A stretch of DNA of 64,000 nucleotides from Antedon mediterranea (taxonomy: Eukaryota > Animalia > Echinodermata), in assembly GCF_964355755.1 (NCBI RefSeq), contig NC_092675.1, forward strand, positions 12,891,812-12,955,811, written 5' to 3'. The notes under the pieces were generated by a model. That model ran no database searches. It worked only from the letters and a program-made list of their open reading frames with translations, and had not been told where the DNA came from. Below, piece after piece: positions 15,001 to 63,914 of the stretch. Position numbers and translations under genes: made by a program. Numbering within the stretch: the stretch's first letter is position 1; the number at the start of each line of letters is the position of its first letter.

Positions 15001-16495
15001 GTGATTTTCGAAAAAACTTGTTAACATAAAAACACCAAAGTGCTTAGAATAGCTTCAAATCGTATTTGGAGACGTTTTAGACCATTTTGAGATTTTCGAA
15101 AAAACTTGGTTACACAAAAACATCAAAGTGCTTAAAATCACATTATAAACCGTTTTAGACCATTTTGAGCATTTCGATAACACTTTTCACACAAAAACAT
15201 CAAAGAGCACAAAATAGCTTAATATCGTATTTAAAAACGTTATAGACCATTTTGAGCATTTCGACAAAACTTTTTCACACAAAACACCAAAGTGCTTAGA
15301 ATAGCTTCAAATCGCATTTGGAGACGTTTTAGACCAATTTGTGCATTTCGATGAAACTTGATTACACAAAAACATCAAAGTGCTTAAAATCACATTATAA
15401 ACCGTTTTAGACCATTTTGAGCATTTCGATAACACTTTTCACACAAAAACATCAAAGAGCACAAAATAGTTTAATATCGTATTTAAAAACGTTTTAGACC
15501 ATTTTGAGCATTTAGACAAAACTTTTTCACACAAAACACCAAAGTGCTTAGAATAGCTTCAAATAACATTTGGAGACGTTTTAGACCATTTTGTGCATTT
15601 CGATGAAACTTGGTTACACAAAAACATCAAAGTGCTTAAAATCACATTATAAATCGTTTTAGACCATTTTGAGCATTTCGACAAAACTTTTTCACACAAA
15701 ATATCAAAGGGCTTAGAATAGCTTCAAATCGCATTTGGAGACGTTTTAGACCATTTTGTGATTTTCGAAAAAACTTTTTAACATAAAAACACCAAAGTGC
15801 TTAGAATAGCTTCAAATCACATTTGGAGACGTTTTAGACCATTTTGTGATTTTCGAAAAAACTTGTTAACATAAAAACACGAAAGTGCTTAGAATAGCTT
15901 CAAATCGCATTTGGAAACGTTTTAGACCATTTTGTGATTTTCGAAAAAAATTGTTAACATAAAAACACCAAAGTGCTTAGAATCACATTATAAACCGTTT
16001 TAGACCATTTTGAGCATTTCGATAACAATTTTCACACAAAAACATCAAAGAGCACAAAATAGCTTAATATCGTATTTAAAAATGTTTTAGACCATTTTGA
16101 GCATTTAGATAAAACTTTTTCACACAAAACACCAAAGTGCTTAGAATAGCTTCAAATCGCATTTGGAGACGTTTTAGACCATTTTGTGATTTTCGAAAAA
16201 ACTTTTTAACATAAAAACACCAAAGTGCTTAGAATAGCTTCAAATCACATTTGGAGACGTTTTAGACCATTTTGTGATTTTCGAAAAAACTTGTTTACAT
16301 AAAAACACGAAAGTGCTTAGAATAGCTTCAAATCGCATTTGGAAACGTTTTAGACCATTTTGTGATTTTCGAAAAAAATTGTTAACATAAAAACACCAAA
16401 GTGCTTAGAATCACATTATAAACCGTTTTAGACCATTTTGAGCATTTCGATAACAATTTTCACACAAAAACATCAAAGAGCACAAAATAGCTTAA
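1..16495 (+). repeat. Satellite DNA array, segment 1 (monomers A 88 bp, B 77 bp, C 87 bp)
   Basis: Continuous head-to-tail repeats. Monomer starts at 601, 689 and 777 give A = 88 bp (AGTGCTTAGAATAGCTTCAAATCGCATTTGGAGACGTTTTAGACC...). 777 to 854 gives B = 77 bp (AGTGCTTAAAATCACATTATAAACCGTTTTAGACC...). 854 to 941 gives C = 87 bp (AGAGCACAAAATAGCTTAATATCGTATTTAAAAACGTTTTAGACC...). The array continues beyond the left window edge. Confidence 0.99.
1930..3260 (+). repeat. Local higher-order repeat: 5 x A monomers, 442 bp, about 3 tandem copies
   Basis: The variant GAGACATTTT recurs with its CAT at 1978, 2420 and 2862 (period 442 = 5x88+2), with the same order of GTCAAC, TATCAAC/AAGGGTTT and CACGAAAG variants. 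Boundaries approximate. Confidence 0.9.
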
Positions 16496-17869
16496 AGTGG
16501 AGCTACACTCAGACTTTCTCAGCTTATATTATGTTTAAGTATGTTTAATTGAAAGTGATTACATAAAAAAAACAGAGAAAACACGGAAATATTTTTCAAA
16601 AACCCATTTCTAAAAAATCGGTTAGAAAATAGTGTCTTTTAATACATTACACTTTTTCAGTAACTTAGGGGTTATTAGTTTACAATACGTCGCGAAACGC
16701 GTTACACTTAGCGACTGACGCGTTTTAGTCGCCGGTGAACTGTCTCCCCTTTGATAAATTATGTGTCGAAAAATGGGGAATAAATTTTATACACACAATT
16801 AATACGATTTGTTTAGGCCTAAGTAATATTTCCGATAAAAATGTCAGTATAATTTACATGTATAACCTCATGATTTGCAATGTACAACAACAGCATAATT
16901 AATCTTATCAGATTGCTTATTAACTTTAAGCTAGGCCTAGCTAAGCCGTCTCTGCTCAGCCTAGCTAGCCTTGAATTTTTGTCTAAGCCTATGGCATTCA
17001 TGGGTTTGAAAATGCTTGGTCGTTTCGCCCCATTTATCGTTCCTGGGTTTTCTCGCACATTCACAAGAATTGTGAAACACAAAATCCCATACAGAACAAG
17101 AGTAGTAAAGCGATGACCGATGTGGAAGCTTAGGCCTGACTGAAAAGCAACTTTTCAGGCACCCTATCATGGCCCATGGGTAGGCCGAAGTTGGGTGTCA
17201 ACAGAACAAACTTCACTGCTGTCAGCCTAGCTAGAGGCCAAACAGCATCGGTACATACCTACACTCTAGTAGGCCTAGGCCTAGCTTTATTGAATATATA
17301 GCCACGTCTTTCTCAAATCTCGTTAAATTTGACATTTTAGTAATAGTCTCATAATCACATTATTACACTGTGAAACATGATAGGGTCACATTCAGAATGT
17401 TTCAATATACTTTTCGCCCGTCAAAAATAACATCGCGACAAAATAACAGATCGCCAGCTCTGCAGTAGTGTGATTGTAAAAATTGTCACGTGATCAGACT
17501 CCCTAGCAAAATAAAAAACCCAATTGGACCCGAACGGGGGAAAGTGTCTATTTACGCAAAATTGCGCAATGTATACGCGATAAAAATACAAGAAATAGAA
17601 AGATCTGGAAAAATTACATAAAAAAACTTTTTAAATTTTTTTTTTAGTGAAGAATTTAATTTTTTAGGATTATTCAAATATACCCCCCTTTTGCATGTAA
17701 AAGAATAGGAAATTACAAGGTATCCCCCCAAAACTCAAAAAGGCGTGATTTTCAAGAAAATCGTACTCATTGAAAAAAATTTCAAAAAAATATGAAGTAT
17801 GAGGGATGATATTTTTAAATAATAGTTGAAATGTATGAAAAATAGTAATTTTCTGGGTGGAGCTCCACT
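16496..17869. mobile_element. Non-autonomous TIR DNA transposon, 1374 bp, Kolobok-like (TTAA TSD, AG...CT termini)
   Basis: TTAA duplicated at 16492-16495 and 17870-17873, and the satellite resumes in exact register. Left TIR AGTGGAGCTACACTCAGA versus reverse-complemented right end AGTGGAGCTCCACCCAGA (16/18 match). TTAA TSD with purine-purine 5' termini is the Kolobok signature, whereas piggyBac begins with C. No transposase-length ORF. Confidence 0.88.
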
Positions 17870-20800
17870 TTAATATCGTATTTAAAAATGTTTTAGACCA
17901 TTTTGAGCATTTAGATAAAACTTTTTCACACAAAACACCAAAGTGCTTAGAATAGCTTCAAATCGCATTTGGAGACATTTTAGACCATTTTGTGATTTTT
18001 GAAAAAACTTGTTAACATAAAAACACCAAAGTGCTTAGAATAGCTTCAAATCACATTTGGAGACGTTTTAGACCATTTTGTGATTTTCGAAAAAACTTTT
18101 TAACATAAAAACACCAAAGTGCTTAGAATAGCTTCAAATCACATTTGGAGACGTTTTAGACCATTTTGTGATTTTTGAAAAAACTTGTTAACATAAAAAC
18201 ACGAAAGTGCTTAGAATAGCTTCAAATCGCATTTGGAAACGTTTTAGACCATTTTGTGATTTTCGAAAAAGATTGTTAACATAAAAACACCAAAGTGCTT
18301 AGAATCACATTATAAACCGTTTTAGACCATTTTGAGCATTTCGATAACAATTTTCACACAAAAACATCAAAGAGCACAAAATAGCTTAATATCGTATTTA
18401 AAAATGTTTTAGACCATTTTGAGCATTTAGATAAAACTTTTTCACACAAAACACCAAAGTGCTTAGAATAGCTTCAAATCGCATTTGGAGACGGTTTAGA
18501 CCATTTTGTGATTTTGAAAAAACTTGTTAACATAAAAACACCAAAGTGCTTAGAATAGCTTCAAATCGCATTTGGAGACGTTTTAGACCATTTTGTGATT
18601 TTCGAAAAAACTTGTTAACATAAAAACACCAAAGTGCTTAGAATAGCTTCAAATCGTATTTGGAGACGTTTTAGACCATTTTGAGATTTTCGAAAAAACT
18701 TGGTTACACAAAAACATCAAAGTGCTTAAAATCACATTATAAACCGTTTTAGACCATTTTGAGCATTTCGATAACACTTTTCACACAAAAACATCAAAGA
18801 GCACAAAATAGCTTAATATCGTATTTAAAAACGTTTTAGACCATTTTGAGCATTTCGACAAAACTTTTTCACACAAAACACCAAAGTGCTTAGAATAGCT
18901 TCAAATCGCATTTGGAGACGTTTTAGACCAATTTGTGCATTTCGATGAAACTTGATTACACAAAAACATCAAAGTGCTTAAAATCACATTATAAACCGTT
19001 TTAGACCATTTTGAGCATTTCGATAACACTTTTCACACAAAAACATCAAAGAGCACAAAATAGCTTAATATCGTATTTAAAAACGTTTTAGACCATTTTG
19101 AGCATTTAGACAAAACTTTTTCACACAAAACACCAAAGTGCTTAGAATAGCTTCAAATCGCATTTGGAGACGTTTTAGACCATTTTGTGCATTTCGATGG
19201 AACTTGGTTACACAAAAACATCAAAGTGCTTAAAATCACATTATAAATCGTTTTAGACCATTTTGAGCATTTCGACAAACTTTTTCACACAAAATACAAA
19301 AGTGCTTAGAATAGCTTCAAATCGCATTTGGAGACGTTTTAGACCATTTTGTGATTTTCGAAAAAACTTTTTAACATAAAAACACCAAAGTGCTTAGAAT
19401 AGCTTCAAATCACATTTGGAGACGTTTTAGACCATTTTGTGATTTTCGAAAAAACTTGTTAACATAAAAACACGAAAGTGCTTAGAATAGCTTCAAATCG
19501 CATTTAGAAACGTTTTAGACCATTTTGTGATTTTCGAAAAAATTGTTAACATAAAAACACCAAAGTGCTTAGAATCACATTATAAACCGTTTTAGACTAT
19601 TTTGAGCATTTCGATAACAATTTTCACACAAAAACATCAAAGAGCACAAAATAGCTTAATATCGTATTTAAAAATGTTTTAGACCATTTTGAGCATTTAG
19701 ATAAAACTTTTTCACACAAAACACCAAAGTGCTTAGAATAGCTTCAAATCGCATTTGGAGACGTTTTAGACCAATTTGTGATTTTTGAAAAAACTTGTTA
19801 ACATAAAAACACCAAAGTGCTTAGAATAGCTTCAAATCACATTTGGAGACGTTTTAGACCATTTTGTGATTTTGAACAAACTTGTTAACATAAAAACACC
19901 AAAGTGCTTAGAATAGCTTCAAATCGCATTTGGAGACGTTTTAGACCATTTTGTGATTTTCGAAAAAACTTGTTAACATAAAAACACCAAAGTGCTTAGA
20001 ATAGCTTCAAATCGTATTTGGAGACGTTTTAGACCATTTTGAGATTTTCGAAAAAACTTGGTTACACAAAAACATCAAAGTGCTTAAAATCACATTATAA
20101 ACCGTTTTAGACCATTTTGAGCATTTCGATAACACTTTTCACACAAAAACATCAAAGAGCACAAAATAGCTTAATATCGTATTTAAAAACGTTTTAGACC
20201 ATTTTGAGCATTTCGACAAAACTTTTTCACACAAAACACCAAAGTGCTTAGAATAGCTTCAAATCGCATTTGGAGACGTTTTAGACCAATTTGTGCATTT
20301 CGATGAAACTTGATTACACAAAAACATCAAAGTGCTTAAAATCACATTATAAACCGTTTTAGACCATTTTGAGCATTTCGATAACACTTTTCACACAAAA
20401 ACATCAAAGAGCACAAAATAGCTTAAAATCGTATTTATAAACGTTTTAGACCATTTTGAGCATTTCGACAAAACTTTTTCACATAAAACACCAAAGTGCT
20501 TAGAATAGCTTCAAATCGCATTTGGAGACGTTTTAGACCAATTTGTGCATTTCGATGAAACTTGATTACACAAAAACATCAAAGTGCTTAAAATCACATT
20601 ATAAACCGTTTTAGACCATTTTGAGCATTTCGATAACACTTTTCACACAAAAACATCAAAGAGCACAAAATAGCTTAATATCGTATTTAAAAACGTTTTA
20701 GACCATTTTGAGCATTTAGAAAAAACTTTTTCACACAAAACACCAAAGTGCTTAGAATAGCTTCAAATCGCATTTGAAGACGTTTTAGACCATTTTGTGA

Positions 20801-21788
20801 TTTTTGAAAAAACTTGTTAACATAAAAACACCAAAGTGCTTAGAATAGCTTCAAATCGCATTTGGAGACGTTTTAGACCATTTTGTGATTTTCGAAAAAA
20901 CTTGTTAACATAAAAACAAGAAAGTGCTTAGAATCACATTATAAACCGTTTTAGACCATTTTGAGCATTTCGATAACAATTTTCACACAAAAACATCAAA
21001 GAGCACAAAATAGCTTAATATCGTATTTAAAAATGTTTTAGACCATTTTGAGCATTTAGATAAAACTTTTTCACACAAAACACCAAAGTGCTTAGAATAG
21101 CTTCAAATCGCATTTGGAGACGTTTTAGACCATTTTGTGATTTTTGAAAAAACTTGTTAACATAAAAACACCAAAGTGCTTAGAATAGCTTCAAATCACA
21201 TTTGGAGATGTTTTAGACCATTTTGTGATTTTTGTAAAAACTTGTTAACATAAAAACACGAAAGTGCTTAGAATAGCTTCAAATCACATTTGGAGACGTT
21301 TTAGACCATTTTGTGATTTTTGAAAAAACTTGTTAACATAAAAACACGAAAGTGCTTAGAATAGCTTCAAATCGCATTTGGAAACGTTTTAGACCATTTT
21401 GTGATTTTCGAAAAAGATTGTTAACATAAAAACACCAATGTGCTTAGAATCACATTATAAACCGTTTTAGACCATTTTGAGCATTTTGATAACAATTTTC
21501 ACACAAAAACATCAAAGAGCACAAAATAGCTTAATATCGTATTTATAAATGTTTTAGACCATTTTGAGCATTTCGACAAAACTTTTTCACACAAAACACC
21601 AAAGTGCTTAGAATAGCTTCAAATCGCATTTGGAGACGTTTTTTATACCATTTTGTGATTTCGATGAAACTTGATTACACAAAAACATCAAAGTCCTTAA
21701 AATCACATTATAAACCGTTTTAGACCATTTTGAGCATTTCGATAACACTTTTCACACAAAAACATCAAAGAGCACAAAATAGCTTAAT
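17870..21788 (+). repeat. Satellite DNA array, segment 2
   Basis: Same A/B/C monomers in the same orientation. Confidence 0.99.
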
Positions 21789-22005
21789 TTTTTTATTTTA
21801 TTTTATTTTATTTAATTTTCAGGCAAACATACATGACAACACAGCCGTGCAGCACCCTGAGGATTGCCATGAGTGCAAAGCACTATCGAGATGGCTCTCC
21901 ATATACTGCACTAGAACATATAAGACAAACATATACACAAGATGCTCTACATAGACAAAGACTTATTATTAAGTCTTTGGGAGTGGAGTTGTAAATTGTC
22001 ATGAG

Positions 22006-22012
22006 AAAAAAA
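22006..22012 (-). terminator. Candidate Pol III terminator (T7) inside the SINE
   Basis: TTTTTTT on the minus strand, 15 nt after the B box. Function is inferred from the rule that Pol III terminates at runs of 4 or more T. Confidence 0.45.
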
Positions 22013-22027
22013 CCCTGACATATGACA

Positions 22028-22038
22028 GGACTTGAACC
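22028..22038 (-). promoter_or_regulatory. RNA polymerase III internal promoter B box of the SINE head
   Basis: GGTTCAAGTCC on the minus strand matches GGTTCRANNCC and lies 33 nt downstream of the A box. Confidence 0.8.
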
Positions 22039-22071
22039 CAGGACCCTTAGATTGGTAGCCAAGCATCATAA

Positions 22072-22082
22072 CCACCAAGCCA
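22072..22082 (-). promoter_or_regulatory. RNA polymerase III internal promoter A box of the SINE head
   Basis: TGGCTTGGTGG on the minus strand, close to the TRGCNNARYGG consensus, 12 nt from the element 5' end. Confidence 0.75.
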
Positions 22083-25000
22083 CAGCTCCACTCCTAATAT
22101 CGTATTTAAAAACGTTTTAGACCATTTTGAGCATTTAGACAAAACTTTTTCACACAAAACACCAAAGTGCTTAGAATAGCTTCAAATCGCATTTGGAGAC
22201 GTTTTAGAACATTTTGTGTTTTTCGAAAAAAACTGTTAACATAAAAACACCAAAGTGCTTAGAATAGCTTCAAATCGCATTTGGAGACGTTTTAGAACAT
22301 TTTGTGTTCTTCGAAAAAACCTGTTAACATAAAAACACCAAAGTGCTTAGAATAGCTTCAAATCGCATTTGGAGACGTTTTAGACCATTTTGTGATTTTT
22401 GAAAAAACTTGTTAACATAAAAACACCAAAGTGCTTAGAATAGCTTCAAATCACATTTGGAGACGTTTTAGACCATTTTGTGATTTTCGAAAAAACTTGT
22501 TAACATAAAAACACGAAAGTGCTTAGAATAGCTTCAAATCGCATTTGGAAACGTTTTAGACCATTTTGTGATTTTCGAAAAAGATTGTTAACATAAAAAC
22601 ACCAAAGTGCTTAGAATCACAATATAAACCGTTTTAGACCATTTTGAGCATTTCGATAACAATTTTCACACAAAAACATCAAAGAGCACAAAATAGCTTA
22701 ATATCGTATTTAAAAATGTTTTAGACCATTTTGAGCATTTAGATAAAACTTTTTCACACAAAACACCAAAGTGCTTAGAATAGCTTCAAATCGCATTTGG
22801 AGACGGTTTAGACCATTTTGTGATTTTGAAAAAACTTGTTAACATAAAAACACCAAAGTGCTTAGAATAGCTTCAAATCGCATTTGGAGACGTTTTAGAC
22901 CATTTTGTGATTTTCGAAAAAACTTGTTAACATAAAAACACCAAAGTGCTTAGAATAGCTTCAAATCGTATTTGGAGACGTTTTAGACCATTTTGAGATT
23001 TTCGAAAAAACTTGGTTACACAAAAACATCAAAGTGCTTAAAATCACATTATAAACCGTTTTAGACCATTTTGAACATTTCGATAACACTTTTCACACAA
23101 AAACATCAAAGAGCACAAAATAGCTTAATATCGTATTTAAAAACGTTTTAGACCATTTTGAGCATTTCGACAAAACTTTTTCACACAAAACACCAAAGTG
23201 CTTAGAATAGCTTCAAATCGCATTTGGAGACGTTTTAGACCAATTTGTGCATTTCGATGAAACTTGATTACACAAAAACATCAACGTGCTTAAAATCACA
23301 TTATAAACCGTTTTAGACCATTTTGAGCATTTCGATAACACTTTTCACACAAAAACATCAAAGAGCACAAAATAGCTTAATATCGTATTTAAAAACGTTT
23401 TAGACCATTTTGAGCATTTAGACAAAACTTTTTCACACAAAACACCAAAGTGCTTAGAATAGCTTCAAATCGCATTTGGAGACGTTTTAGACCATTTTGT
23501 GCATTTCGATGAAACTTGGTTACACAAAAACATCAAAGTGCTTAAAATCACATTATAAATCGTTTTAGACCATTTTGAGCATTTCGACAAAACTTTTTCA
23601 CACAAAAACACGAAAGTGCTTAGAATAGCTTCAAATCGCATTTGGAAACGTTTTAGACCATTTTGTGATTTTCGAAAAAACTTGTTAACATAAAAACACG
23701 AAAGTGCTTAGAATAGCTTCAAATCGCATTTGGAAACGTTTTAGACCATTTTGTGATTTTCGAAAAAAATTGTTAACATAAAAACACCAAAGTGTTTAGA
23801 ATAGCTTCAAATCGCATTTGGAGACGTTTTAGACCAATTTGTGATTTTCGAAAAAACTTATCAACATAAAAACACCAAAGGGTTTAGAATAGCTTCAAAT
23901 CGCATTTGGAGACGTTTTAGACCATTTTGTGATTTTGAAAAAACTTGTTAACATAAAAACACCAAAGTGCTTAGAATAGCTTCAAATCGCATTTGGAGAC
24001 GTTTTAGACCATTTTGTGATTTTCGAAAAAACTTGTTAACATAAAAACACCAAAGTGCTTAGAATAGCTTCAAATCGTATTTGGAGACGTTTTAGACCAT
24101 TTTGAGATTTTCGAAAAAACTTGGTTACACAAAAACATCAAAGTGCTTAAAATCACATTATAAACCGTTTTAGACCATTTTGAACATTTCGATAACACTT
24201 TTCACACAAAAACATCAAAGAGCACAAAATAGCTTAATATCGTATTTAAAAACGTTTTAGACCATTTTGAGCATTTCGACAAAACTTTTTCACACAAAAC
24301 ACCAAAGTGCTTAGAATAGCTTCAAATCGCATTTGGAGACGTTTTAGACCAATTTGTGCATTTCGATGAAACTTGATTACACAAAAACATCAACGTGCTT
24401 AAAATCACATTATAAACCGTTTTAGACCATTTTGAGCATTTCGATAACACTTTTCACACAAAAACATCAAAGAGCACAAAATAGCTTAATATCGTATTTA
24501 AAAACGTTTTAGACCATTTTGAGCATTTAGACAAAACTTTTTCACACAAAACACCAAAGTGCTTAGAATAGCTTCAAATAACATTTGGAGACGTTTTAGA
24601 CCATTTTGTGCATTTCGATGAAACTTGGTTACACAAAAACATCAAAGTGCTTAAAATCACATTATAAATCTTTTTAGACCTTTTTGAGAATTTCGACAAA
24701 ACTTTTTCACACAAAATATCAAAGGGCTTAGAATAGCTTCAAATCGCATTTGGAGACGTTTTAGACCATTTTGTGCATTTCGATGAAACTTGGTTACACA
24801 AAAACATCAAAGTGCTTAAAATCACATTATAAATCGTTTTAGACCATTTTGAGCATTTCGACAAAACTTTTTCACACAAAAACACGAAAGTGCTTCGAAT
24901 AGCTTCAAATCGCATTTGGAAACGTTTTAGACCATTTTGTGATTTTCGAAAAAACTTGTTAACATAAAAACACGAAAGTGCTTAGAATAGCTTCAAATCG

Positions 25001-28000
25001 CATTTGGAGACGTTTTAGACCAATTTGTGATTTTCGAAAAAACTTATCAACATAAAAACACCAAAGGGTTTAGAATAGCTTCAAATCGCATTTGGAGACG
25101 TTATAGACCATTTTGTGATTTTGAAAAAACTTGTTAACATAAAAACACCAAAGTGCTTAGAATAGCTTCAAATCGCATTTGGAGACGTTTTAGACCATTT
25201 TGTGATTTTCGAAAAAACTTGTTAACATAAAAACACCAAAGTGCTTAGAATAGCTTCAAATCGTATTTGGAGACGTTTTAGACCATTTTGAGATTTTCGA
25301 AAAAACTTGGTTACACAAAAACATCAAAGTGCTTAAAATCACATTATAAACCGTTTTAGACCATTTTGAACATTTCGATAACACTTTTCACACAAAAACA
25401 TCAAAGAGCACAAAATAGCTTAATATCGTATTTAAAAACGTTTTAGACCATTTTGAGCATTTCGACAAAACTTTTTCACACAAAACACCAAAGTGCTTAG
25501 AATAGCTTCAAATCGCATTTGGAGACGTTTTAGACCAATTTGTGCATTTCGATGAAACTTGATTACACAAAAACATCAAAGAGCACAAAATCACATTATA
25601 AACCGTTTTAGACCATTTTGAGCATTTCGATAACACTTTTCACACAAAAACATCAAAGAGCACAAAATAGCTTAATATCGTATTTAAAAACGTTTTAGAC
25701 CATTTTGAGCATTTAGACAAAACTTTTTCACACAAAACACCAAAGTGCTTAGAATAGCTTCAAATAACATTTGGAGACGTTTTAGACCATTTTGTGCATT
25801 TCGATGAAACTTGGTTACACAAAAACATCAAAGTGCTTAAAATCACATTATAAATCTTTTTAGACCATTTTGAGCATTTCGACAAAACTTTTTCACACAA
25901 AATATCAAAGGGCTTAGAATAGCTTCAAATCGCATTTGGAGACGTTTTAGACCATTTTGTGATTTTCGAAAAAACTTGTTAACATAAAAACACGAAAGTG
26001 CTTAGAATAGCTTCAAATCGCATTTGGAGACGTTTTAGACCATTTTGTGATTTTCGAAAAAACTTGTTAACATAAAAACACGAAAGTGCTTAGAATCACA
26101 TTATAAACCGTTTTAGACCATTTTGAGCATTTCGATAACAATTTTCACACAAAAACATCAAAGAGCACAAAATAGCTTAATATCGTATTTAAAAATGTTT
26201 TAGACCATTTTGAGCATTTAGATAAAACTTTTTCACACAAAACACCAAAGTGCTTAGAATAGCTTCAAATCGCATTTGGAGACGTTTTAGACCATTTTGT
26301 GATTTTTGAAAAAACTTGTTAACATAAAAACACCAAAGTGCTTAGAATAGCTTCAAATCACATTTGGAGATGTTTTAGACCATTTTGTGATTTTTGAAAA
26401 AACTTGTTAACATAAAAACACGAAAGTGCTTAGAATAGCTTCAAATCACATTTGGAGACGTTTTAGACCATTTTGTGATTTTTGAAAAAACTTGTTAACA
26501 TAAAAACACGAAAGTGCTTAGAATAGCTTCAAATCGCATTTGGAAACGTTTTAGACCATTTTGTGATTTTCGAAAAAGATTGTTAACATAAAAACACCAA
26601 TGTGCTTAGAATCACATTATAAACCGTTTTAGACCATTTTGAGCATTTCGATAACAATTTTCACACAAAAACATCAAAGAGCACAAAATAGCTTAATATC
26701 GTATTTATAAATGTTTTAGACCATTTTGAGCATTTCGACAAAACTTTTTCACACAAAACACCAAAGTGCTTAGAATAGCTTCAAATCGCATTTGGAGACG
26801 TTTTTTATACCATTTTGTGATTTCGATGAAACTTGATTACACAAAAACATCAAAGTGCTTAAAATCACATTATAAACCGTTTTAGACCATTTTGAGCATT
26901 TCGATAACACTTTTCACACAAAAACATCAAAGAGCACAAAATAGCTTAATATCGTATTTAAAAACGTTTTAGACCATTTTGAGCATTTAGACAAAACTTT
27001 TTCACACAAAACACCAAAGTGCTTAGAATAGCTTCAAATCGCATTTGGAGACGTTTTAGAATATTTTGTGTTTTTCGAAAAAAACTGTTAACATAAAAAC
27101 ACCAAAGTGCTTAGAATAGCTTCAAATCACATTTGGAGACGTTTTAGAACATTTTGTGTTCTTCGAAAAAACCTGTTAACATAAAAACACCAAAGTGCTT
27201 AGAATAGCTTCAAATCGCATTTGGAGACGTTTTAGACCATTTTGTGATTTTTGAAAAAACTTGTTAACATAAAAACACCAAAGTGCTTAGAATAGCTTCA
27301 AATCACATTTGGAGACGTTTTAGACCATTTTGTGATTTTCGAAAAAACTTGTTAACATAAAAACACGAAAGTGCTTAGAATAGCTTCAAATCGCATTTAG
27401 AAACGTTTTAGACCATTTTGTGATTTTCGAAAAAGATTGTTAACATAAAAACACCAAAGTGCTTAGAATCACAATATAAACCGTTTTAGACCATTTTGAG
27501 CATTTCGATAACAATTTTCACACAAAAACATCAAAGAGCACAAAATAGCTTAATATCGTATTTAAAAATGTTTTAGACCATTTTGAGCATTTAGACAAAA
27601 CTTTTTCACACAAAACACCAAAGTGCTTAGAATAGCTTCAAATCGCATTTGGAGACGTTTTAGACCATTTTGTGCATTTCGATGAAACTTGGTTACACAA
27701 AAACATCAAAGTGCTTAAAATCACATTATAAATCGTTTTAGACCATTTTGAGCATTTCGACAAAACTTTTTCACACAAAATACCAAAAGGCTTAGAATAG
27801 CTTCAAATCGCATTTGGAGACGTTTTAGACCATTTTGTGATTTTCGAAAAAACTTTTTAACATAAAAAGACCAAAGTGCTTAGAATAGCTTCAAATCACA
27901 TTTGGAGACGTTTTAGACCATTTTGTGATTTTCGAAAAAACTTGTTAACATAAAAACACGAAAGTGCTTAGAATAGCTTCAAATCGCATTTGGAAACGTT

Positions 28001-34000: not shown

Positions 34001-34545
34001 GCTTAGAATAGCTTAAAATCGCATTTGGAGACGTTTTAGACCAATTTGTGCATTTCGATGAAACTTGATTACACAAAAACATCAACGTGCTTAAAATCAC
34101 ATTATAAACCGTTTTAGACCATTTTGAGCATTTCGATAACACTTTTCACACAAAAACATCAAAGAGCACAAAATAGCTTAATATCGTATTTAAAAACGTT
34201 TTAGACCATTTTGAGCATTTAGACAAAACTTTTTCACACAAAACACCAAAGTGCTTAGAATAGCTTCAAATCGCATTTGGAGACGTTTTAGACCATTTTG
34301 TGCATTTCGATGAAACTTGGTTACACAAAAACATCAAAGTGCTTCAAATGACATTATAAATCGTTTTAGACCATTTTGAGCATTTCGACAAAACTTTTTC
34401 ACACAAAATACCAAAGGGCTTAGAATAGCTTCAAATCGCATTTGGAGACGTTTTAGACCATTTTGTGATTTTCGAAAAAACTTTTTAACATAAAAACACC
34501 AAAGTGCTTAGAATAGCTTCAAATCACATTTGGAGACGTTTTAGA

Positions 34546-46500: not shown

Positions 46501-47699
46501 GCATTTGGAGACGTTTTAGACCATTTTGTGATTTTCGAAAAAACTTTTTAACATAAAAACACCAAAGTGCTTAGAATAGCTTCAAATCGTATTTGGAGAC
46601 GTTTTAGACCATTTTGAGATTTTCGAAAAAACTTGGTTACACAAAAACATCAAAGTGCTTAAAATCACATTATAAACCGTTTTAGACCATTTTGAGCATT
46701 TCGATAACACTTTTCACACAAAAACATCAAAGAGCACAAAATAGCTTAATATCGTATTTAAAAACGTTTTAGACCATTTTGAGCATTTCGACAAAACTTT
46801 TTCACACAAAACACCAAAGTGCTTAGAATAGCTTCAAATCGCATTTGGAGACGTTTTAGACCAATTTGTGCATTTCGATGAAACTTGATTACACAAAAAC
46901 ATCAAAGTGCTTAAAATCACATTATAAACCGTTTTAGACCATTTTGAGCATTTCGATAACACTTTTCACACAAAAACATCAAAGAGCACAAAATAGCTTA
47001 ATATCGTATTTAAAAACGTTTTAGACCATTTTGAGCATTTAGACAAAACTTTTTCACACAAAACACCAAAGTGCTTAGAATAGCTTCAAATCGCATTTGG
47101 AGACGTTTTAGACCATTTTGTGCATTTCGATGAAACTTGGTTACACAAAAACATCAAAGTGCTTAAAATCACATTATAAATCGTTTTAGACGATTTTGAG
47201 CATTTAGATAAAACTTTTTCACACAAAACACCAAAGTGCTTAGAATAGCTTCAAATCGCATTTGGAGACGTTTTAGACCATTTTGTGATTTTTGAAAAAA
47301 CTTGTTAACATAAAAACACCAAAGTGCTTAGAATAGCTTCAAATCACATTTGGAGATGTTTTAGACCATTTTGTGATTTTCGAAAAAACTTGTTAACATA
47401 AAAACACGAAAGTGCTTAGAATAGCTTCAAATCGCATTTGGAAATGTTTTAGACCATTTTGTGATTTTCGAAAAAGATTGTTAACATAAAAACACCAATG
47501 TGCTTAGAATCACATTATAAACCGTTTTAGACCATTTTGAGCATTTCGATAACAATTTTCACACAAAAACATCAAAGAGCACAAAATAGCTTAACATCGT
47601 ATTTATAAATGTTTTAGACCATTTTGAGCATTTCGACAAAACTTTTTCACACAAAACACCAAAGTGCTTAGAATAGCTTCAAATCGCATTTGGAGACGT

Positions 47700-53600: not shown

Positions 53601-56600
53601 TAACATAAAAACACCAAAGTGCTTAGAATAGCTTCAAATCGCATTTGGAGACGTTTTAGACCATTTTGTGATTTTCGAAAAAACTTGTTAACATAAAAAC
53701 ACGAAAGTGCTTAGAATAGCTTCAAATCGCATTTGGAGACGTTTTAGACCATTTTGTGATTTTCGAAAAAACATGTTAACATAAAAACACCAAAGTGCTT
53801 AGAATAGCTTCAAATTGTATTTGGAGACGTTTTAGACCATTTTGAGATTTTCGAAAAAACTTGGTTACACAAAAACATCAAAGTGCTTAAAATCACATTA
53901 TAAACCGTTTTAGACCATTTTGAGAATTTCGATAACACTTTTCACACAAAAACATCAAAGAGCACAAAATAGCTTAATATCGTATTTAAAAACGTTTTAG
54001 ACCATTTTGAGCATTTCGACAAAACTTTTTCACACAAAACACCAAAGTGCTTAGAATAGCTTCAAATCGCATTTGGAGACGTTTTAGACCAATTTGTGCA
54101 TTTCGATGACACTTGATTACACAAAAACATCAAAGTGCTTAAAATCACATTATAAACCGTTTTAGACCATTTTGAGCATTTCGATAACACTTTTCACACA
54201 AAAACATCAAAGAGCACAAAATAGCTTAATATCGTATTTAAAAACGTTTTAGACCATTTTGAGCATTTAGACAAAACTTTTTCACACAAAACACCAAAGT
54301 GCTTAGAATAGCTTCAAATCGCATTTGGAGACGTTTTAGACCATTTTGTGCATTTCGATGAAACTTGGTTACACAAAAACATCAAAGTGCTTAAAATCAC
54401 ATTATAAATCGTTTTAGACCATTTTGAGCATTTCGACAAAACTTTTTCACACAAAATACAAAAGTGCTTAGAATAGCTTCAAATCGCATTTCGAGACGTT
54501 TTAGACCATTTTGTGATTTTCGAAAAAACTTTTTAACATAAAAACACCAAAGTGCTTAGAATAGCTTCAAATCACATTTGGAGACGTTTTAGACCATTTT
54601 GTGATTTTCGAAAAAACTTGTTAACATAAAAACACGAAAGTGCTTAGAATAGCTTCAAATCGCATTTAGAAACGTTTTAGACCATTTTGTGATTTTCGAA
54701 AAAAATTGTTAACATAAAAACACCAAAGTGCTTAGAATCACATTATAAACCGTTTTAGACCATTTTGAGCATTTCGATAACAATTTTCACACAAAAACAT
54801 CAAAGAGCACAAAATAGCTTAATATCGTATTTAAAAATGTTTTAGACCATTTTGAGCATTTAGATAAAACTTTTTCACACAAAACACCAAAGTGCTTAGA
54901 ATAGCTTCAAATCGCATTTGGAGACGTTTTAGACCATTTTGTGATTTTTGAAAAAACTTGTTAACATAAAAACACCAAAGTGCTTAGAATAGCTTCAAAT
55001 CACATTTGGAGACGTTTTAGACCATTTTGTGATTTTCGAAAAAACTTGTTAACATAAAAACACGAAAGTGCTTAGAATAGCTTCAAATCGCATTTGGAAA
55101 CGTTTTAGACCATTTTGTGATTTTCGAAAAAAATTGTTAACATAAAAACACCAAAGTGCTTAGAATCACATTATAAACCGTTTTAGACCATTTTGAGCAT
55201 TTCGATAACAATTTTCACACAAAAACATCAAAGAGCACAAAATAGCTTAATATCGTATTTAAAAATGTTTTAGACCATTTTGAGCATTTAGATAAAACTT
55301 TTTCACACAAAACACCAAAGTGCTTAGAATAGCTTCAAATCGCATTTGGAGACGTTTTAGACCATTTTGTGATTTTTGAAAAAACTTGTTAACATAAAAA
55401 CACGAAAGTGCTTAGAATAGCTTCAAATCGCATTTGGAAACGTTTTAGACCATTTTGTGATTTTCGAAAAAACTTGTTAACATAAAAACACGAAAGTGCT
55501 TAGAATAGCTTCAAATCGCATTTGGAAACGTTTTAGACCATTTTGTGATTTTCGAAAAAACTTGTTAACATAAAAACACCAAAGTGCTTAGAATAGCTTC
55601 AAATCACATTTGGAGACGTTTTAGACCATTTTGTGATTTTCGAAAAAACTTATCAACATAAAAACACCAAAGGGTTTAGAATAGCTTCAAATCGCATTTG
55701 GAGACGTTTTAGACCATTTTGTGATTTTGAAAAAACTTGTTAACATAAAAACACCAAAGTGCTTAGAATAGCTTCAAATCGCATTTGGAGACGTTTTAGA
55801 CTATTTTGTGATTTTCGAAAAAACTTGTTAACATAAAAACACCAAAGTGCTTAGAATAGCTTCAAATCGTATTTGGAGACGTTTTAGACCATTTTGAGAT
55901 TTTCGAAAAAACTTGGTTACACAAAAACATCAAAGTGCTTAAAATCACATTATAAACCGTTTTAGACCATTTTGAGCATTTCGATAACACTTTTCACACA
56001 AAAACATCAAAGAGCACAAAATAGCTTAATATCGTATTTAAAAACGTTTTAGACCATTTTGAGCATTTCGACAAAACTTTTTCACACAAAACACCAAAGT
56101 GCTTAGAATAGCTTCAAATCGCATTTGGAGACGTTTTAGACCAATTTGTGCATTTCGATGAAACTTGATTACACATAAACATCAAAGTGCTTAAAATCAC
56201 ATTATAAACCGTTTTAGACCATTTTGAGCATTTCGATAACACTTTTCACACAAAAACATCAAAGAGCACAAAATAGCTTAATATCGTATTTAAAAACGTT
56301 TTAGACCATTTTGAGCATTTAGACAAAACTTTTTCACACAAAACACCAAAGTGCTTAGAATAGCTTCAAATCGCATTTGGAGACGTTTTAGACCATTTTG
56401 TGCATTTCGATGAAACTTGGTTACACAAAAACATCAAAGTGCTTAAAATCACATTATAAATCGTTTTAGACCATTTTGAGCATTTCGACAAAACTTTTTC
56501 ACACAAAATACCAAAGTGCTTAGAATAGCTTCAAATCGCATTTAGAGACGTTTTAGACCATTTTGTGATTTTCGAAAAAACTTTTTAACATAAAAACACC

Positions 56601-59200
56601 AAAGTGCTTAGAATAGCTTCAAATCACATTTGGAGACATTTTAGACCATTTTGTGATTTTCGAAAAAACTTGTTAACATAAAAACACGAAAGTGCTTAGA
56701 ATAGCTTCAAATCGCATTTGGAAACGTTTTAGACCATTTTGTGATTTTCGAAAAAAATTGTTAACATAAAAACACCAAAGTGCTTAGAATCACATTATAA
56801 ACCGTTTTAGACCATTTTGAGCATTTCGATAACAATTTTCACACAAAAACATCAAAGAGCACAAAATAGCTTAATATCGTATTTAAAAATGTTTTAGACC
56901 ATTTTGAGCATTTAGATAAAACTTTTTCACACAAAACACCAAAGTGCTTAGAATAGCTTCAAATCGCATTTGGAGACGTTTTAGACCATTTTGTGATTTT
57001 TGAAAAAACTTGTTAACATAAAAACACCAAAGTGCTTAGAATAGCTTCAAATCACATTTGGAGACGTTTTAGACCATTTTGTGATTTTCGAAAAAACTTG
57101 TTAACATAAAAACACGAAAGTGCTTAGAATAGCTTCAAATCGCATTTGGAAACGTTTTAGACCATTTTGTGATTTTCGAAAAAACTTGTTAACATAAAAA
57201 CACGAAAGTGCTTAGAATAGCTTCAAATCGCATTTGGAAACGTTTTAGACCATTTTGTGATTTTCAAAAAAACTTGTTAACATAAAAACACGAAAGTGCT
57301 TAGAATAGCTTCAAATCGCATTTGGAAACGTTTTAGACCATTTTGTGATTTTCGAAAAAAATTGTTAACATAAAAACACCAAAGTGTTTAGAATAGCTTC
57401 AAATCGCATTTGGAGACGTTTTAGACCAATTTGTGATTTTCGAAAAAACTTATCAACATAAAAACACCAAAGGGTTTAGAATAGCTTCAAATCGCATTTG
57501 GAGACGTTTTAGACCATTTTGTGATTTTTAAAAAACTTGTTAACATAAAAACACCAAAGTGCTTAGAATAGCTTCAAATCGCATTTGGAGACATTTTAGA
57601 CCATTTTGTGATTTTCGAAAAAACTTGTTAACATAAAAACACCAAAGTGCTTAGAATAGCTTCAAATCGTATTTGGAAACGTTTTAGACCATTTTGAGAT
57701 TTTCGAAAAAACTTGGTTACACAAAAACATCAAAGTGCTTAAAATCACATTATAAACCGTTTTAGACCATTTTGAGCATTTCGGTAACACTTTTCACACA
57801 AAAACATCAAAGAGCACAAAATAGCTTAATATCGTATTTAAAAACGTTTTAGACCATTTTGAGCATTTAGACAAAACTTTTTCACACAAAACACCAAAGT
57901 GCTTAGAATAGCTTCAAATCGCATTTGGAGACGTTTTAGACCATTTTGTGCATTTCGATGAAACTTGGTTACACAAAAACATCAAAGTGCTTAAAATCAC
58001 ATTATAAATCGTTTTAGACCATTTTGAGCATTTCGACAAAACTTTTTCACACAAAATACCAAAGTGCTTAGAATAGCTTCAAATCGCATTTGGAGACGTT
58101 TTAGACCATTTTGTGATTTTCGAAAAAACTTTTTAACATAAAAACACCAAAGTGCTTAGAATAGCTTCAAATCACATTTGGAGACGTTTTAGACCATAAG
58201 TGCTTAGAATCACATTATAAACCGTTTTAGACCATTTTGAGCATTTCGATAACAATTTTCACACAAAAACATCAAAGAGCACAAAATAGCTTAATATCGT
58301 ATTTAAAAATGTTTTAGACCATTTTGAGCATTTAGATAAAACTTTTTCACACAAAACACCAAAGTGCTTAGAATAGCTTCAAATCGCATTTGGAGACGTT
58401 TTAGACCATTTTGTGATTTTTGAAAAAACTTGTTAACATAAAAACACCAAAGTGTTTAGAATAGCTTCAAATCACATTTGGAGACGTTTTAGACCATTTT
58501 GTGATTTTCGAAAAAACTTGTTAACATAAAAACACGAAAGTGCTTAGAATAGCTTCAAATCGCATTTGGAAACGTTTTAGACCATTTTGTGATTTTCGAA
58601 AAAACTTGTTAACATAAAAACATGAAAGTGCTTAGAATAGCTTCAAATCGTATTTGGAGACGTTTTAGACCATTTTGTAATTTTCGAAAAAACTTGTTAA
58701 CATAAAAACACCAATGTGCTTAGAATAGCTTCAAATCGCATTTTGAGACGTTTTTTATACCATTTTGTGATTTCGATGAAAATTGATTACACAAAAACAT
58801 CAAAGTGCTTAAAATCACATTATAAACCGTTTTAGACCATTTTGAGCATTTCGATAACACTTTTCACACAAAAACATCAAAGAGCACAAAATAGCTTAAT
58901 ATCGTATTTAAAAACGTTTTAGACCATTTTGAGCATTTAGACAAAACTTTTTCACACAAAACACCAAAGTGCTTAGAATAGCTTCAAATCGCATTTGGAG
59001 ACGTTTTAGAACATTTTGTGTTTTTCGAAAAAAACTGTTAACATAAAAACACCAAAGTGCTTAGAATAGCTTCAAATCGCATTTGGAGACGTTTTAGAAC
59101 ATTTTGTGTTCTTCGAAAAAACCTGTTAACATAAAAACACCAAAGTGCTTAGAATAGCTTCAAATCGCATTTGGAGACGTTTTAGACCATTTTGTGATTT
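47700..59200 (+). repeat. Recent tandem segmental duplication, period 5526 bp, about 2.1 copies
   Basis: Private variants recur at an exact offset of 5526: GACACTTG 48582/54108, TCGGTAAC (C at 52256/57782), CCATAAG 52668/58194, GACGTTTTTTATACC 53221/58747. Confidence 0.92.
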
Positions 59201-60622
59201 TTGAAAAAACTTGTTAACATAAAAACACCAAAGTGCTTAGAATAGCTTCAAATCACATTTGGAGACGTTTTAGACCATTTTGTGATTTTCGAAAAAACTT
59301 GTTAACATAAAAACACGAAAGTGGTTAGAATAGCTTCAAATCGCATTTGGAAACGTTTTAGACCATTTTGTGATTTTCGAAAAAGATTGTTAACATAAAA
59401 ACACCAAAGTGCTTAGAATCACAATATAAACCGTTTTAGACCATTTTGAGCATTTCGATAACAATTTTCACACAAAAACATCAAAGAGCACAAAATAGCT
59501 TAATATCGTATTTAAAAATGTTTTAGACCATTTTGAGCATTTAGATAAAACTTTTTCACACAAAACACCAAAGTGCTTAGAATAGCTTCAAATCGCATTT
59601 GGAGACGGTTTAGACCATTTTGTGATTTTGAAAAAACTTGTTAACATAAAAACACCAAAGTGCTTAGAATAGCTTCAAATCGCATTTGGAGACGTTTTAG
59701 ACCATTTTGTGATTTTCGAAAAAACTTGTTAACATAAAAACACCAAAGTGCTTAGAATAGCTTCAAATCGTATTTGGAGACGTTTTAGACCATTTTGAGA
59801 TTTTAGAAAAAACTTGTTAACATAAAAACACGAAAGTGCTTAGAATAGCTTCAAATCGCATTTGGAAACGTTTTAGACCATTTTGTGATTTTCGAAAAAA
59901 CTTGTTAACATAAAAACACGAAAGTGCTTAGAATAGCTTCAAATCGCATTTGGAAACGTTTTAGACCATTTTGTGATTTTCGAAAAAAATTGTTAACATA
60001 AAAACACCAAAGTGCTTAGAATCACATTATAAACCGTTTTAGACCATTTTGAGCATTTCGATAACAATTTTCACACAAAAACATCAAAGAGCACAAAATA
60101 GCTTAATATCGTATTTAAAAATGTTTTAGACCATTTTGAGCATTTAGATAAAACTTTTTCACACAAAACACCAAAGTGCTTAGAATAGCTTCAAATCGCA
60201 TTTGGAGACGTTTTAGACCATTTTGTGATTTTTGAAAAAACTTGTTAACATAAAAACACCAAAGTGCTTAGAATAGCTTCAAATCACATTTGGAGACGTT
60301 TTAGACCATTTTGTGATTTTCGAAAAAACTTGTTAACATAAAAACACGAAAGTGCTTAGAATAGCTTCAAATCGCATTTGGAAACGTTTTAGACCATTTT
60401 GTGATTTTCGAAAAAACTTGTTAACATAAAAACACGAAAGTGCTTAGAATAGCTTCAAATCGCATTTGGAAACGTTTTAGACCATTTTGTGATTTTCGAA
60501 AAAACTTGTTAACATAAAAACACGAAAGTGCTTAGAATCACATTATAAACCGTTTTAGACCATTTTGAGCATTTCGATAACAATTTTCACACAAAAACAT
60601 CAAAGAGCACAAAATAACTTAA

Positions 60623-61169
60623 AGATGTATTGTCCCTTTGACTAATTCCAAAAAAATAAAAAATAAAAGATTTCGAAAAAAGGTGGGTCATTTTGAAGTA
60701 TCATAATAGTTATTAACTATCACCAAAAATTTTTTGAAAAAAAAAAAATTTAACTGAAATACAGACGTGTTTTTGTTAAAAAAATAACTTTGACTTCCAG
60801 TCAAAGTTTTCAGTCAAAACATATCCCATAAGGAAACACGCTTGTTTGGCTACTCTGTATGCATAATCATAAAACTTCCTCATGATCTGTGTGAAATAAC
60901 CTTCTTAACCGTGACGAGTTGTAAACAATCCTAATTTAGCATATGCATAATGCGTACTCATGGTTTGAAATCTTTGTTTACTTTAGCTCGTGACGATTTT
61001 CCAAATGAAATGTAATCAAACTAATTTACCTGTTAATTACGTAAACTTGTTGTTTTTGGCTAAAATTTTCGACTTAAAGTGAATAACTTTAACATTACTT
61101 TGATATGGCCACTTTAAATTTAGAATATTTTGACCTTCATTTTTTTGTGTTTCAAGGGACAATACATCT
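60623..61169. mobile_element. MITE, 547 bp, Kolobok-like (TTAA TSD, perfect 16 bp TIR)
   Basis: TTAA at 60619-60622 and 61170-61173. TIR AGATGTATTGTCCCTT at 60623-60638 and AAGGGACAATACATCT at 61154-61169. AG...CT termini, no ORF. TIR and interior differ from the 1374 bp element, so it is a separate family. Confidence 0.9.
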
Positions 61170-63914
61170 TTAATATCGTATTTATAAATGTTTTAGACCA
61201 TTTTGAGCATTTCGACAAAACTTTTTCACACAAAACACCAAAGTTCTTAGAATAGCTTCAAATCGCATTTGGAGACGTTTTAGACCATTTTGTGATTTCG
61301 ATGAAACTTGATTACACAAAAACATCAAAGTGCTTAAAATCACATTATAAACCGTTTTAGACCATTTTGAGCATTTCGATAACACTTTTCACACAAAAAC
61401 ATCAAAGAGCAAAAAATAGCTTAATATCGTATTTAAAAACGTTTTAGACCATTTTGAGCATTTAGACAAAACTTTTTCACACAAACACCAAAGTGCTTAG
61501 AATAGCTTCAAATCGCATTTGGAGACGTTTTAGAACATTTTGTGTTTTTCGAAAAAAACTGTTAACATAAAAACACCAAAGTGCTTAGAATAGCTTCAAA
61601 TCGCATTTGGAGACGTTTTAGAACATTTTGTGTTCTTCGAAAAAACCTGTTAACATAAAAACACCAAAGTGCTTAGAATAGCTTCAAATCGCATTTGGAG
61701 ACGTTTTAGACCATTTTGTGATTTTTGAAAAAACTTGTTAACATAAAAACACCAAAGTGCTTAGAATAGCTTCAAATCACATTTGGAGACGTTTTAGACC
61801 ATTTTGTGATTTTCGAAAAAACTTGTTAACATAAAAACACCAAAGTGCTTAGAATAGCGTCAAATCGTATTTGGAGACGTTTTAGACCATTTTGTGATTT
61901 TCGAAAAAACTTGTTAACATAAAAACACCAAAGTGCTTAGAATAGCTTCAAATCGCATTTGGAGACGGTTTAGACCATTTTATGATTTTGAAAAAACTTG
62001 TTAACATAAAAACACCAAAGTGCTTATAATAGCTTCAAATCGCATTTGGAGACGTTTTAGACCATTTTGTGATTTTCGAAAAAACTTGTTAACATAAAAA
62101 AACCAAAGTGCTTAGAATAGCTTCAAATCGTATTTGGAGACGTTTTAGACCATTTTGAGATTTTCGAAAAAACTTGGTTACACAAAAACATCAAAGTGCT
62201 TAAAATCACATTATAAACCGTTTTAGACCATTTTGAGCATTTCGATAACACTTTTCACACAAAAACATCAAAGAGCACAAAATAGCTTAATATCGTATTT
62301 AAAAACGTTTTAGACCATTTTGAGCATTTCGACAAAAACTTTTTCACACAAAACACCAAAGTGCTTAGAATAGCTTCAAATCGCATTTGGAGACGTTTTA
62401 GACCAATTTGTGCATTTCGATGAAACTTGATTACACAAAAACATCAAAGTGCTTAAAATCACATTATAAACCGTTTTAGACCATTTTGAGCATTTCGATA
62501 ACACTTTTCACACAAAAACATCAAAGAGCACAAAATAGCTTAATATCGTATTTAAAAACGTTTTAGACCATTTTGAGCATTTCGACAAAACTTTTTCACA
62601 CAAAACACCAAAGTGCTTAGAATAGCTTCAAATCGCATTTGGAGACGTTTTAGACCAATTTGTGCATTTCGATGAAACTTGATTACACAAAAACATCAAA
62701 GTGCTTAAAATCACATTATAAACCGTTTTAGACCTTTTTGAGCATTTCGATAACACTTTTCACACAAAAACATCAAAGAGCACAAAATAGCTTAATATCG
62801 TATTTAAAAACGTTTTAGACCATTTTGAGCATTTAGACAAAACTTTTTCACACAAAACACCAAAGTGCTTAGAATAGCTTCAAATCGCATTTGGAGACGT
62901 TTTAGACCATTTTGTGATTTTTGAAAAAACTTGTTAACATAAAAACACCAAAGTGCTTAGAATAGCTTCAAATCACATTTGGAGACGTTTTAGACCATTT
63001 TGTGATTTTCGAAAAAACTTGTTAACATAAAAACACGAAAGTGCTTAGAATAGCTTCAAATCGCATTTGGAAACGTTTTAGACCATTTTGTGATTTTCGA
63101 AAAAACTTGTTAACATAAAAACACGAAAGTGCTTAGAATCACATTATACACCGTTTTAGACCATTTTGAGCATTTCGATAACAATTTTCACACAAAAACA
63201 TCAAAGAGCACAAAATAGCTTAATATCGTATTTAAAAATGTTTTAGACCATTTTGAGCATTTAGATAAAACTTTTTCACACAAAACACCAAAGTGCTTAG
63301 AATAGCTTCAAATCGCATTTGGAGACGTTTTAGACCATTTTGTGATTTTCGAAAAAACTTGTTAACATAAAAACACGAAAGTGCTTAGAATAGCTTCAAA
63401 TCGCATTTGGAAACGTTTTAGACCATTTTGTGATTTTCGAAAAAAATTGTTAACATAAAAACACCAAAGTGTTTAGAATAGCTTCAAATCGCATTTGGAG
63501 ACGTTTTAGACCAATTTGTGATTTTCGAAAAAACTTATCAACATAAAAACACCAAAGGGTTTAGAATAGCTTCAAATCGCATTTGGAGACGTTTTAGACC
63601 ATTTTGTGATTTTGAAAAAACTTGTTAACATAAAAACACCAAAGTGCTTAGAATAGCTTCAAATCGCATTTGGAGACGTTTTAGACCATTTTGTGATTTT
63701 CGAAAAAACTTGTTAACATAAAAACACCAAAGTGCTTAGAATAGCTTCAAATCGTATTTGGAGACGTTTTAGACCATTTTGAGATTTTCGAAAAAACTTG
63801 GTTACACAAAAACATCAAAGTGCTTAAAATCACATTATAAACCGTTTTAGACCATTTTGAGCATTTCGGTAACACTTTTCACACAAAAACATCAAAGAGC
63901 ACAAAATAGCTTAA
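61170..63914 (+). repeat. Satellite DNA array, segment 4
   Basis: Same A/B/C monomers in the same orientation. Confidence 0.99.

What the first reader, a model, noticed from the sequence alone, without database searches (positions are those of the whole stretch)
16492..63914. Four unrelated mobile elements all inserted at the same TTAA of the minority C monomer: a satellite-encoded insertion hotspot
Seen: every interruption of the array (TTAA at 16492, 21784, 60619, 63911) falls at CAAAGAGCACAAAATARC^TTAA^TATCGTATTT. The elements share no family: two Kolobok-like TIR elements with different TIRs, one piggyBac-like end and one SINE. TTAA is not limiting. It also occurs in GTTAAC (A monomers, the commonest type), GCTTAAAATC (B) and ATTTAAAA (12 bp downstream in C). 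A hand count in one C-rich 1232 bp unit (34546-35777) gave 14 TTAA, only 3 of this class, and A-rich zones have fewer. Established: Kolobok and piggyBac need TTAA, but SINEs insert by LINE-driven target-primed reverse transcription with no TTAA requirement. Inference: convergence of different integration chemistries on one position points to a host-side determinant, such as an exposed linker in a phased nucleosome array, a deformable DNA step, a tethering protein, or selection that tolerates insertions only there. Caveat: n = 4.
Basis: partly seen in the sequence, partly recalled or inferred. Interest (0 to 1): 0.85.

Follow-up and report, generated by a model that had tools for sequence, protein, structure and literature searches.

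The report
Shared transposon landing spot in satellite
All four mobile elements that interrupt this 64-kb satellite array sit at one spot of a minority repeat unit (three exactly, one about a base off); this likely reflects a real landing bias, inferred to come from bendable, exposed DNA, but four events cannot exclude element preferences plus luck.

Summary
Observation confirmed, with corrections. The array has exactly four interruptions, all in C monomers (122 of 725 segments). Two Kolobok-type MITEs duplicate the C1 TTAA exactly. The piggyBac-like element shows only its left end. The SINE duplicates TAA(T), not TTAA. C1 is 124 of 659 TTAAs: P = 0.007 for three elements at C1, 0.13 for any one class, about 0.01 with the SINE added. 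Against simple flank preference: natural relatives of the piggyBac-like end show no bias at base -1 (14 to 40 flanks from other species). For the host-side reading: 375 of 378 TpA-densest windows overlap C1 (post hoc). Against it: those relatives do not prefer TpA-rich flanks, and TTAAT, which matches the SINE tail, occurs at C1 in 119 of 120 cases, so the SINE may need no host factor. Kolobok flank preference is untested. The genome-wide test failed: no genome is held and contigs did not show junctions. Positional bias in satellite monomers is known from rice. Verdict: probably a real hot spot, mechanism inferred.

The parts
1..63914 (+). AT-rich satellite array of 78/87/88-bp monomers (A runs separated by B-C-D blocks; commonest C-to-C spacing 252 bp)
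16492..16495 (.). C1 TTAA, left copy of E1 target duplication (right copy 17870-17873)
16496..17869 (.). E1: 1374-bp non-coding Kolobok-type element, AG...CT ends, 18-bp TIR with 2 mismatches, TTAA duplication
   Evidence: empty paralogous site at 31196 with 3 mismatches in 600 bp
21788..22094 (-). 307-bp tRNA-type SINE: A- and B-box-like words, head folds into a long stem (z -3.15), A-rich tail; duplication TAA or TAAT (21785-21787/8 and 22095-22097/8)
   Evidence: empty paralogous site at 26946 with 4 mismatches in 600 bp
60623..61169 (.). E3: 547-bp non-coding Kolobok-type element, AG...CT ends, perfect 16-bp TIR, TTAA duplication (60619-60622 and 61170-61173)
   Evidence: empty paralogous blocks at 97.7% over 600 bp
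63915..64000 (.). E4: left end of a piggyBac-like TTAA element, cut off by the window end
   Evidence: similar over 49-58 bp to L009 and L029, which are complete 197- and 213-bp TIR elements with TTAA on both sides
18808..18828 (.). Example of an empty C-monomer tail: C1 TTAA (18813-18816) and C2 TTAA (18825-18828) within the array's TpA-densest 21 bp (5 TpA steps)

Best explanation
Four unrelated mobile elements inserted independently and recently at or one base beside the first TTAA of the C-monomer tail, likely because that short TpA-rich stretch is the most bendable and, by inference, most exposed spot of the array. Shown: the positions, the junctions, the independence of the events, the empty paralogous sites and the TpA density. 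Inferred: transposases that must bend and melt TTAA, and a LINE endonuclease/reverse transcriptase that must open a T-rich primer, all gain from the same soft, accessible DNA; the neighbouring B and C2 TTAAs run into A-tracts, and A sites would be covered by phased chromatin or lost as A runs turn over. The SINE's choice is likely helped by pairing between its tail and the target.
For: 4 of 4 interruptions at a class that holds 124 of 659 TTAAs; joint P 0.0006-0.011; Bayes factor 18-234 against availability, 3-41 with A sites left out. Near-identical empty paralogues and one copy of each insert show separate, recent events. 375 of 378 21-bp windows with 5 or more TpA steps, of 61,654, overlap a C1 TTAA; C1 is the only class with TpA within 4 bp on both sides and has the least A-tract contact within 4 bp (0.09, against 0.12 for A, 0.42 for B, 0.78 for C2). 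Natural E4-like ends accept any base at -1 (A4 C2 G3 T5 in 14 family-verified flanks; A7 C11 G7 T15 in all 40), which predicts only 14-21% of insertions at C1. piggyBac bends its target severely and unpairs TTAA (PMC7351741, passages) and does not use all TTAAs alike (PMC3078864, passages). A monomer-position bias is reported for a rice retrotransposon (10.1101/2024.07.28.605524, section 9).
Against: n = 4, of which one is half seen and one is a base off. TpA density was picked after the fact from about 20 features; duplex stability, A+T content, symmetry, all pyrimidine-purine steps and hairpin folding do not single out C1. Natural E4-like ends do not favour TpA-rich flanks: 4 of 14 and 7 of 40 against 111 of 328 background sites, the latter p=0.047 in the wrong direction, so bendability alone is not supported and the argument leans on untested chromatin. 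TTAAT alone can explain the SINE. Kolobok flank preference was not measured. No chromatin map or genome-wide insertion map was obtained.
Confidence: 0.45

Rival explanations
1. Element-side sequence rules plus one lucky draw: the SINE is placed by pairing of its tail with TTAAT, the two Kolobok-type elements share a transposase preference for this flank, and the piggyBac-like element hit C1 by chance (about 1 in 5).
For: TTAAT: 119 of 120 occurrences are at C1; the SINE tail holds the matching ATTAA word; short duplications of about 5 bp are typical of an L2 LINE (PMC4245944, passages). Counting the Kolobok pair as one draw gives P=0.035.
Against: B shares C at -1 and GC at -2/-1 with C1 and was not used; the recalled Xenopus T2-MITE target TTTAA(A/T) fits C2 better (recalled, not checked). 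One Kolobok lineage shows no strong target preference (PMC9587614, passages), though its duplications vary (supplement passages), so it is a poor match. If the SINE nicks TAAT only, C1 holds 119 of 300 sites.
Confidence: 0.3
2. Chance: four events happened to agree and were noticed because they agree.
For: Three elements in some one class has P=0.13; with A left out 0.115. The scan reads very many windows and reports coincidences.
Against: Agreement on a minority class with the SINE added has P=0.0006, on any class 0.011.
Confidence: 0.13
3. Survival bias: insertions land everywhere but those in A runs are removed faster by unequal exchange, or those at other positions are selected against.
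For: A runs vary from 1 to about 20 monomers whereas C is always single between B and D; leaving A out cuts the Bayes factor to 3-41.
Against: B and C2 lie in the same block, 87 and 12 bp from C1, share its turnover and hold 210 TTAAs with no insertion. The inserts are recent, which leaves little time for selection.
Confidence: 0.08
4. A sequence-specific satellite-binding protein next to C1 tethers integration complexes of several classes.
For: Base-pair agreement across classes; the rice peak coincides with a B-box-like motif.
Against: No such protein or footprint is in hand; tethering is usually specific to one integrase (recalled).
Confidence: 0.04

Closest known systems
SZ-22 LTR retrotransposon insertions in rice CEN155 satellite (10.1101/2024.07.28.605524; passages and section 9 read; supplementary figure not seen)
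   Same: Insertions mapped to a satellite consensus are biased to one part of the monomer.
   Different: One family, 2,258 insertions spread over the whole monomer with a 20-bp peak; here several classes meet within 1 bp, in one minority monomer type, with n = 4.
piggyBac TTAA hot spots in HEK293 cells (PMC3078864; passages)
   Same: One TTAA is used repeatedly while adjacent or near-identical TTAAs are not.
   Different: One engineered transposase in unique human DNA; no piggyBac target was found in satellite there.
Kolobok non-autonomous elements, such as Xenopus T2-MITE (PMC6004289, PMC9587614; passages)
   Same: TTAA duplication, RR...YY (AG...CT) ends, short TIRs, no coding capacity.
   Different: No sequence match to a named family was tested; no satellite-site targeting appears in the passages read.
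Target-specific elements of multicopy repeats (Pokey in rDNA, Dada in small-RNA genes, R2; recalled, no call)
   Same: Repeated use of one position in a multicopy host repeat.
   Different: There one family is specialised for its target; here unrelated families share a site and none is shown to be confined to it.

Membership tests
Kolobok (E1, E3) | TTAA target duplication | tested here: met
   both sides of both elements; definition in PMC9587614
Kolobok (E1, E3) | 5'-RR...YY-3' ends with short TIRs | tested here: met
   AG...CT; TIR 18 bp with 2 mismatches and 16 bp perfect
Kolobok (E1, E3) | Kolobok transposase or homology to a known family | not testable with these tools
   longest stop-free frames 111 aa (E1) and 46 aa (E3); no genome or repeat library held; viral-contig hits match only the 17-19-base pattern
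piggyBac (E4) | TTAA duplication on both sides | tested here: inconclusive
   left TTAA only; right end outside the window. Relatives L009, L029, L033 have TTAA on both sides
piggyBac (E4) | C/T-rich 5' end unlike Kolobok's RR | tested here: met
   begins CACTTT; beetle piggyBac ends include CCCTTT and CACGTT (PMC12732532, passages)
piggyBac (E4) | piggyBac transposase | not testable with these tools
   86 bases in the window
tRNA-derived SINE | internal Pol III A and B boxes, structured head, A-rich tail, short duplication | tested here: met
   box-like words at 13-23 and 57-66 (box patterns recalled), fold z -3.15, tail and TAA(T) duplication
tRNA-derived SINE | recognisable tRNA homology; many dispersed copies; partner LINE | tested here: inconclusive
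   ARAGORN found 0 genes; Rfam gave 5 matches, all below gathering score; copies and partner not testable
Genome-wide insertion hot spot in a satellite monomer | enrichment in a large independent set of insertions | tested here: inconclusive
   contig laying showed satellite variants only and no known junction
Genome-wide insertion hot spot in a satellite monomer | excess beyond each family's flank preference | tested here: inconclusive
   met for E4-like ends at base -1 in other species; not tested for E1, E3 or the SINE
Centromeric satellite with phased nucleosomes | CENP-A occupancy and nucleosome phasing | not testable with these tools
   only very high contig depth in runs X5-X8, which the tool says is no copy number

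The most novel reading that the evidence does not exclude
A minority monomer of a major animal satellite encodes a universal landing pad: one exposed, deformable step in phased chromatin that draws Kolobok, piggyBac and LINE-driven insertions to the same base, so that insertions genome-wide would read out the array's chromatin structure at base resolution.
Probability: 0.25. Interest if true: 0.75.

Novelty: new variant of a known kind. Interest (0 to 1): 0.45.

Why it matters
If it holds genome-wide, natural insertions would map the accessible positions of a satellite array whose chromatin is otherwise hard to resolve, and would show that different integration chemistries can be steered to one base by the target. 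It would also bear on how arrays tolerate insertions. Bias within monomers is already reported for a single family; convergence of several classes at base precision did not turn up in my searches (exact-phrase searches of an open-access library, so weak evidence of absence). The test is cheap once the assembly is in hand.

Tried and rejected
No whole genome is held for this window, so the genome-wide map could not be made. Laying X5-X8 on an A-B-C-D stretch showed 24 of 353 loose-end rows, all satellite variants. Laying X6 alone on 74 bases around C1 and C2 gave 4 loose-end rows, none a clean element end at C1 or C2; since not even the window's own junction types appeared, this is no evidence either way. 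Satellite patterns found nothing in viral, metagenome or prokaryote contigs. TIR patterns in viral contigs gave 2, 0 and 4 hits with no similarity beyond the pattern. Rejected as what marks C1: duplex stability, A+T content, flank symmetry (C2 is higher), hairpin folding, all pyrimidine-purine steps. A TpA-flank preference of E4-like ends was tested and not found. No derivation of the satellite from the inserts: only 8-18-base matches. My recollection that PMC5333637 reports linker preference for piggyBac was not borne out ('nucleosome' 0 occurrences); another recalled paper is not held, so linker preference is uncited. PMC11707139, PMC3983033, PMC6169391 and PMC10984392 (passages) gave no usable flank matrix; PMC3983033 reports no non-trivial motif within 50 bp of piggyBac sites. 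Earlier scan notes: nothing relevant (one search returned unrelated bacterial notes).
Full report
What is there. The window is one AT-rich satellite array of 78-, 87- and 88-bp monomers. Splitting at the shared anchor gives 725 segments, 122 of them C type; runs of A monomers alternate with B-C-D blocks, and the commonest C-to-C spacing is 252 bp (30 of 123). The kinds of inserts point to an animal genome (inference); the source is not known and no genome is held. Four public runs of one sample hold the satellite at very high contig depth.

The observation. There are exactly four interruptions, all in C monomers; with them removed no run of unique sequence remains. E1 (16496-17869) and E3 (60623-61169) are non-coding, end in AG...CT with 16-18-bp TIRs and duplicate TTAA, which fits the published definition of Kolobok ends (PMC9587614, passages; PMC6004289, passages). 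E4 begins at 63915 and is cut by the window end; its start resembles complete short TTAA-flanked TIR elements from metagenome contigs (L009, L029), and its C-rich end fits piggyBac (PMC12732532, passages). The fourth insert (21788-22094, minus strand) is a tRNA-type SINE (box patterns recalled; ARAGORN and Rfam gave no firm match). Its duplication is TAA or TAAT, one base off the TTAA. Each insert is single in the window and has an almost identical empty paralogue: 3 mismatches in 600 bp for E1, 4 for the SINE, 1 in the 300-bp left flank for E4, 97.7% for E3. They are therefore separate and recent events.

Is it more than chance? Three TTAA-bound elements at C1 has P=0.0067, in any one class 0.134. 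Adding the SINE at a random TA step within 2 bp gives 0.011 for any class and 0.0006 for minority classes. A simple hot-class model is favoured by a factor of 18-234, or 3-41 if A sites are left out; the one-sided 95% lower bound on the C1 share is 0.37 from 3 of 3. These figures do not allow for the scan's selection of striking cases. I put a real bias of some kind at about 85%.

Do element preferences explain it? For the piggyBac-like end I could test relatives. A pattern scan gave 60 loci, 40 distinct flanks after removing duplicates and three copies of one old locus; 14 belong to families seen at two or more different flanks (picked, L012 added by eye). Base -1 is A4 C2 G3 T5 in the 14 and A7 C11 G7 T15 in the 40, against a background of T134 A84 G61 C57; weighting the satellite's classes accordingly leaves C1 at 14-21%. 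Some of the 40 may be chance matches, all are from other species, and the sample is small. The two closest complete relatives sit in T-TTAA-A, the C2 context. So base -1 does not explain E4. For Kolobok I have no matched data: one lineage is reported to lack strong preference, but its duplications vary (supplement passages). Pairing of tail and target at the start of reverse transcription is recalled for L2-type LINEs; the paper I could read documents only their short duplications and 5' annealing (PMC4245944, passages). With the looser word TAAT, C1 holds 119 of 300 sites.

What marks C1? It lies in the TpA-densest stretch of the array: 375 of the 378 21-bp windows with five or more TpA steps, of 61,654, overlap it. 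It is the only class with TpA close on both sides, while B and C2 run into A-tracts. piggyBac bends and melts its target (PMC7351741, passages) and discriminates among TTAAs (PMC3078864, passages). But this feature was found after the fact; stability, A+T content, symmetry, hairpins and total pyrimidine-purine steps do not single out C1, A sites also have little A-tract contact within 4 bp (0.12), and E4-like ends show no liking for TpA flanks (4 of 14, 7 of 40, background 111 of 328). Shape alone is thus not supported; if the site is special, exposure in chromatin is the likelier added cause, and that is untested.

The genome-wide test failed. Laying contigs on the unit showed only satellite variants (24 of 353 rows shown); a narrow stretch with one run gave four loose ends, none a clean element end. 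One of them joins 255 foreign bases four bases right of C1; it is not a clean insertion end and I give it no weight.

Comparison and verdict. Position bias within a satellite monomer is reported for a rice retrotransposon, with a peak at 100-120 of CEN155 (10.1101/2024.07.28.605524, section 9; its supplementary figure could not be seen and may show how sharp the peak is). Searches for several classes meeting at one satellite position found no paper, which is weak evidence. The elements are ordinary; the convergence is a new variant of a known kind, probably real, resting on four events of which perhaps two or three are independent tests. Best reading: an exposed, bendable spot (0.45); element-side rules plus luck (0.30); chance (0.13); survival bias (0.08); tethering protein (0.04).

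Noticed in passing
run X6, laid at window 18820: One contig joins 255 non-satellite bases to the C monomer four bases right of the C1 TTAA; its last 30 letters share three short words, in order, with the body of the window's SINE (by eye). Possibly an array edge or a deletion after insertion.
   Followed up: partly
window 21980-22094 (minus strand): The SINE head closes a long stem between its first 15 bases and bases near 100-113 (z -3.15), and its first bases share the word AGTGGAGCT with the E1 TIR; probably chance.
   Followed up: partly
whole array: B, C and D look like mosaics of head and tail halves; two C variants keep head and tail markers linked over about 55 bp (67 and 42 of 117 monomers matched), so exchange within C is rare.
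   Followed up: partly
window 34538, 35770, 38274, 39506, 52660, 58186: Six copies of a 38-bp deleted monomer mark a higher-order unit (1232 bp between the first two) that was duplicated locally and again about 15-20 kb away.
   Followed up: no
window 16496-17869: E1's interior holds five AGGCCT words, some in 14-bp palindromes.
   Followed up: no
L009, L029, L033, L049: Complete 197-437-bp piggyBac-like miniature elements with TTAA on both sides in metagenome contigs, probably host DNA; L029 and L049 share the left flank but differ on the right.
   Followed up: partly
whole window: Four inserts in 64 kb of an array whose blocks differ by about 0.5-2% imply a high recent insertion rate or a position near the array edge.
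   Followed up: no
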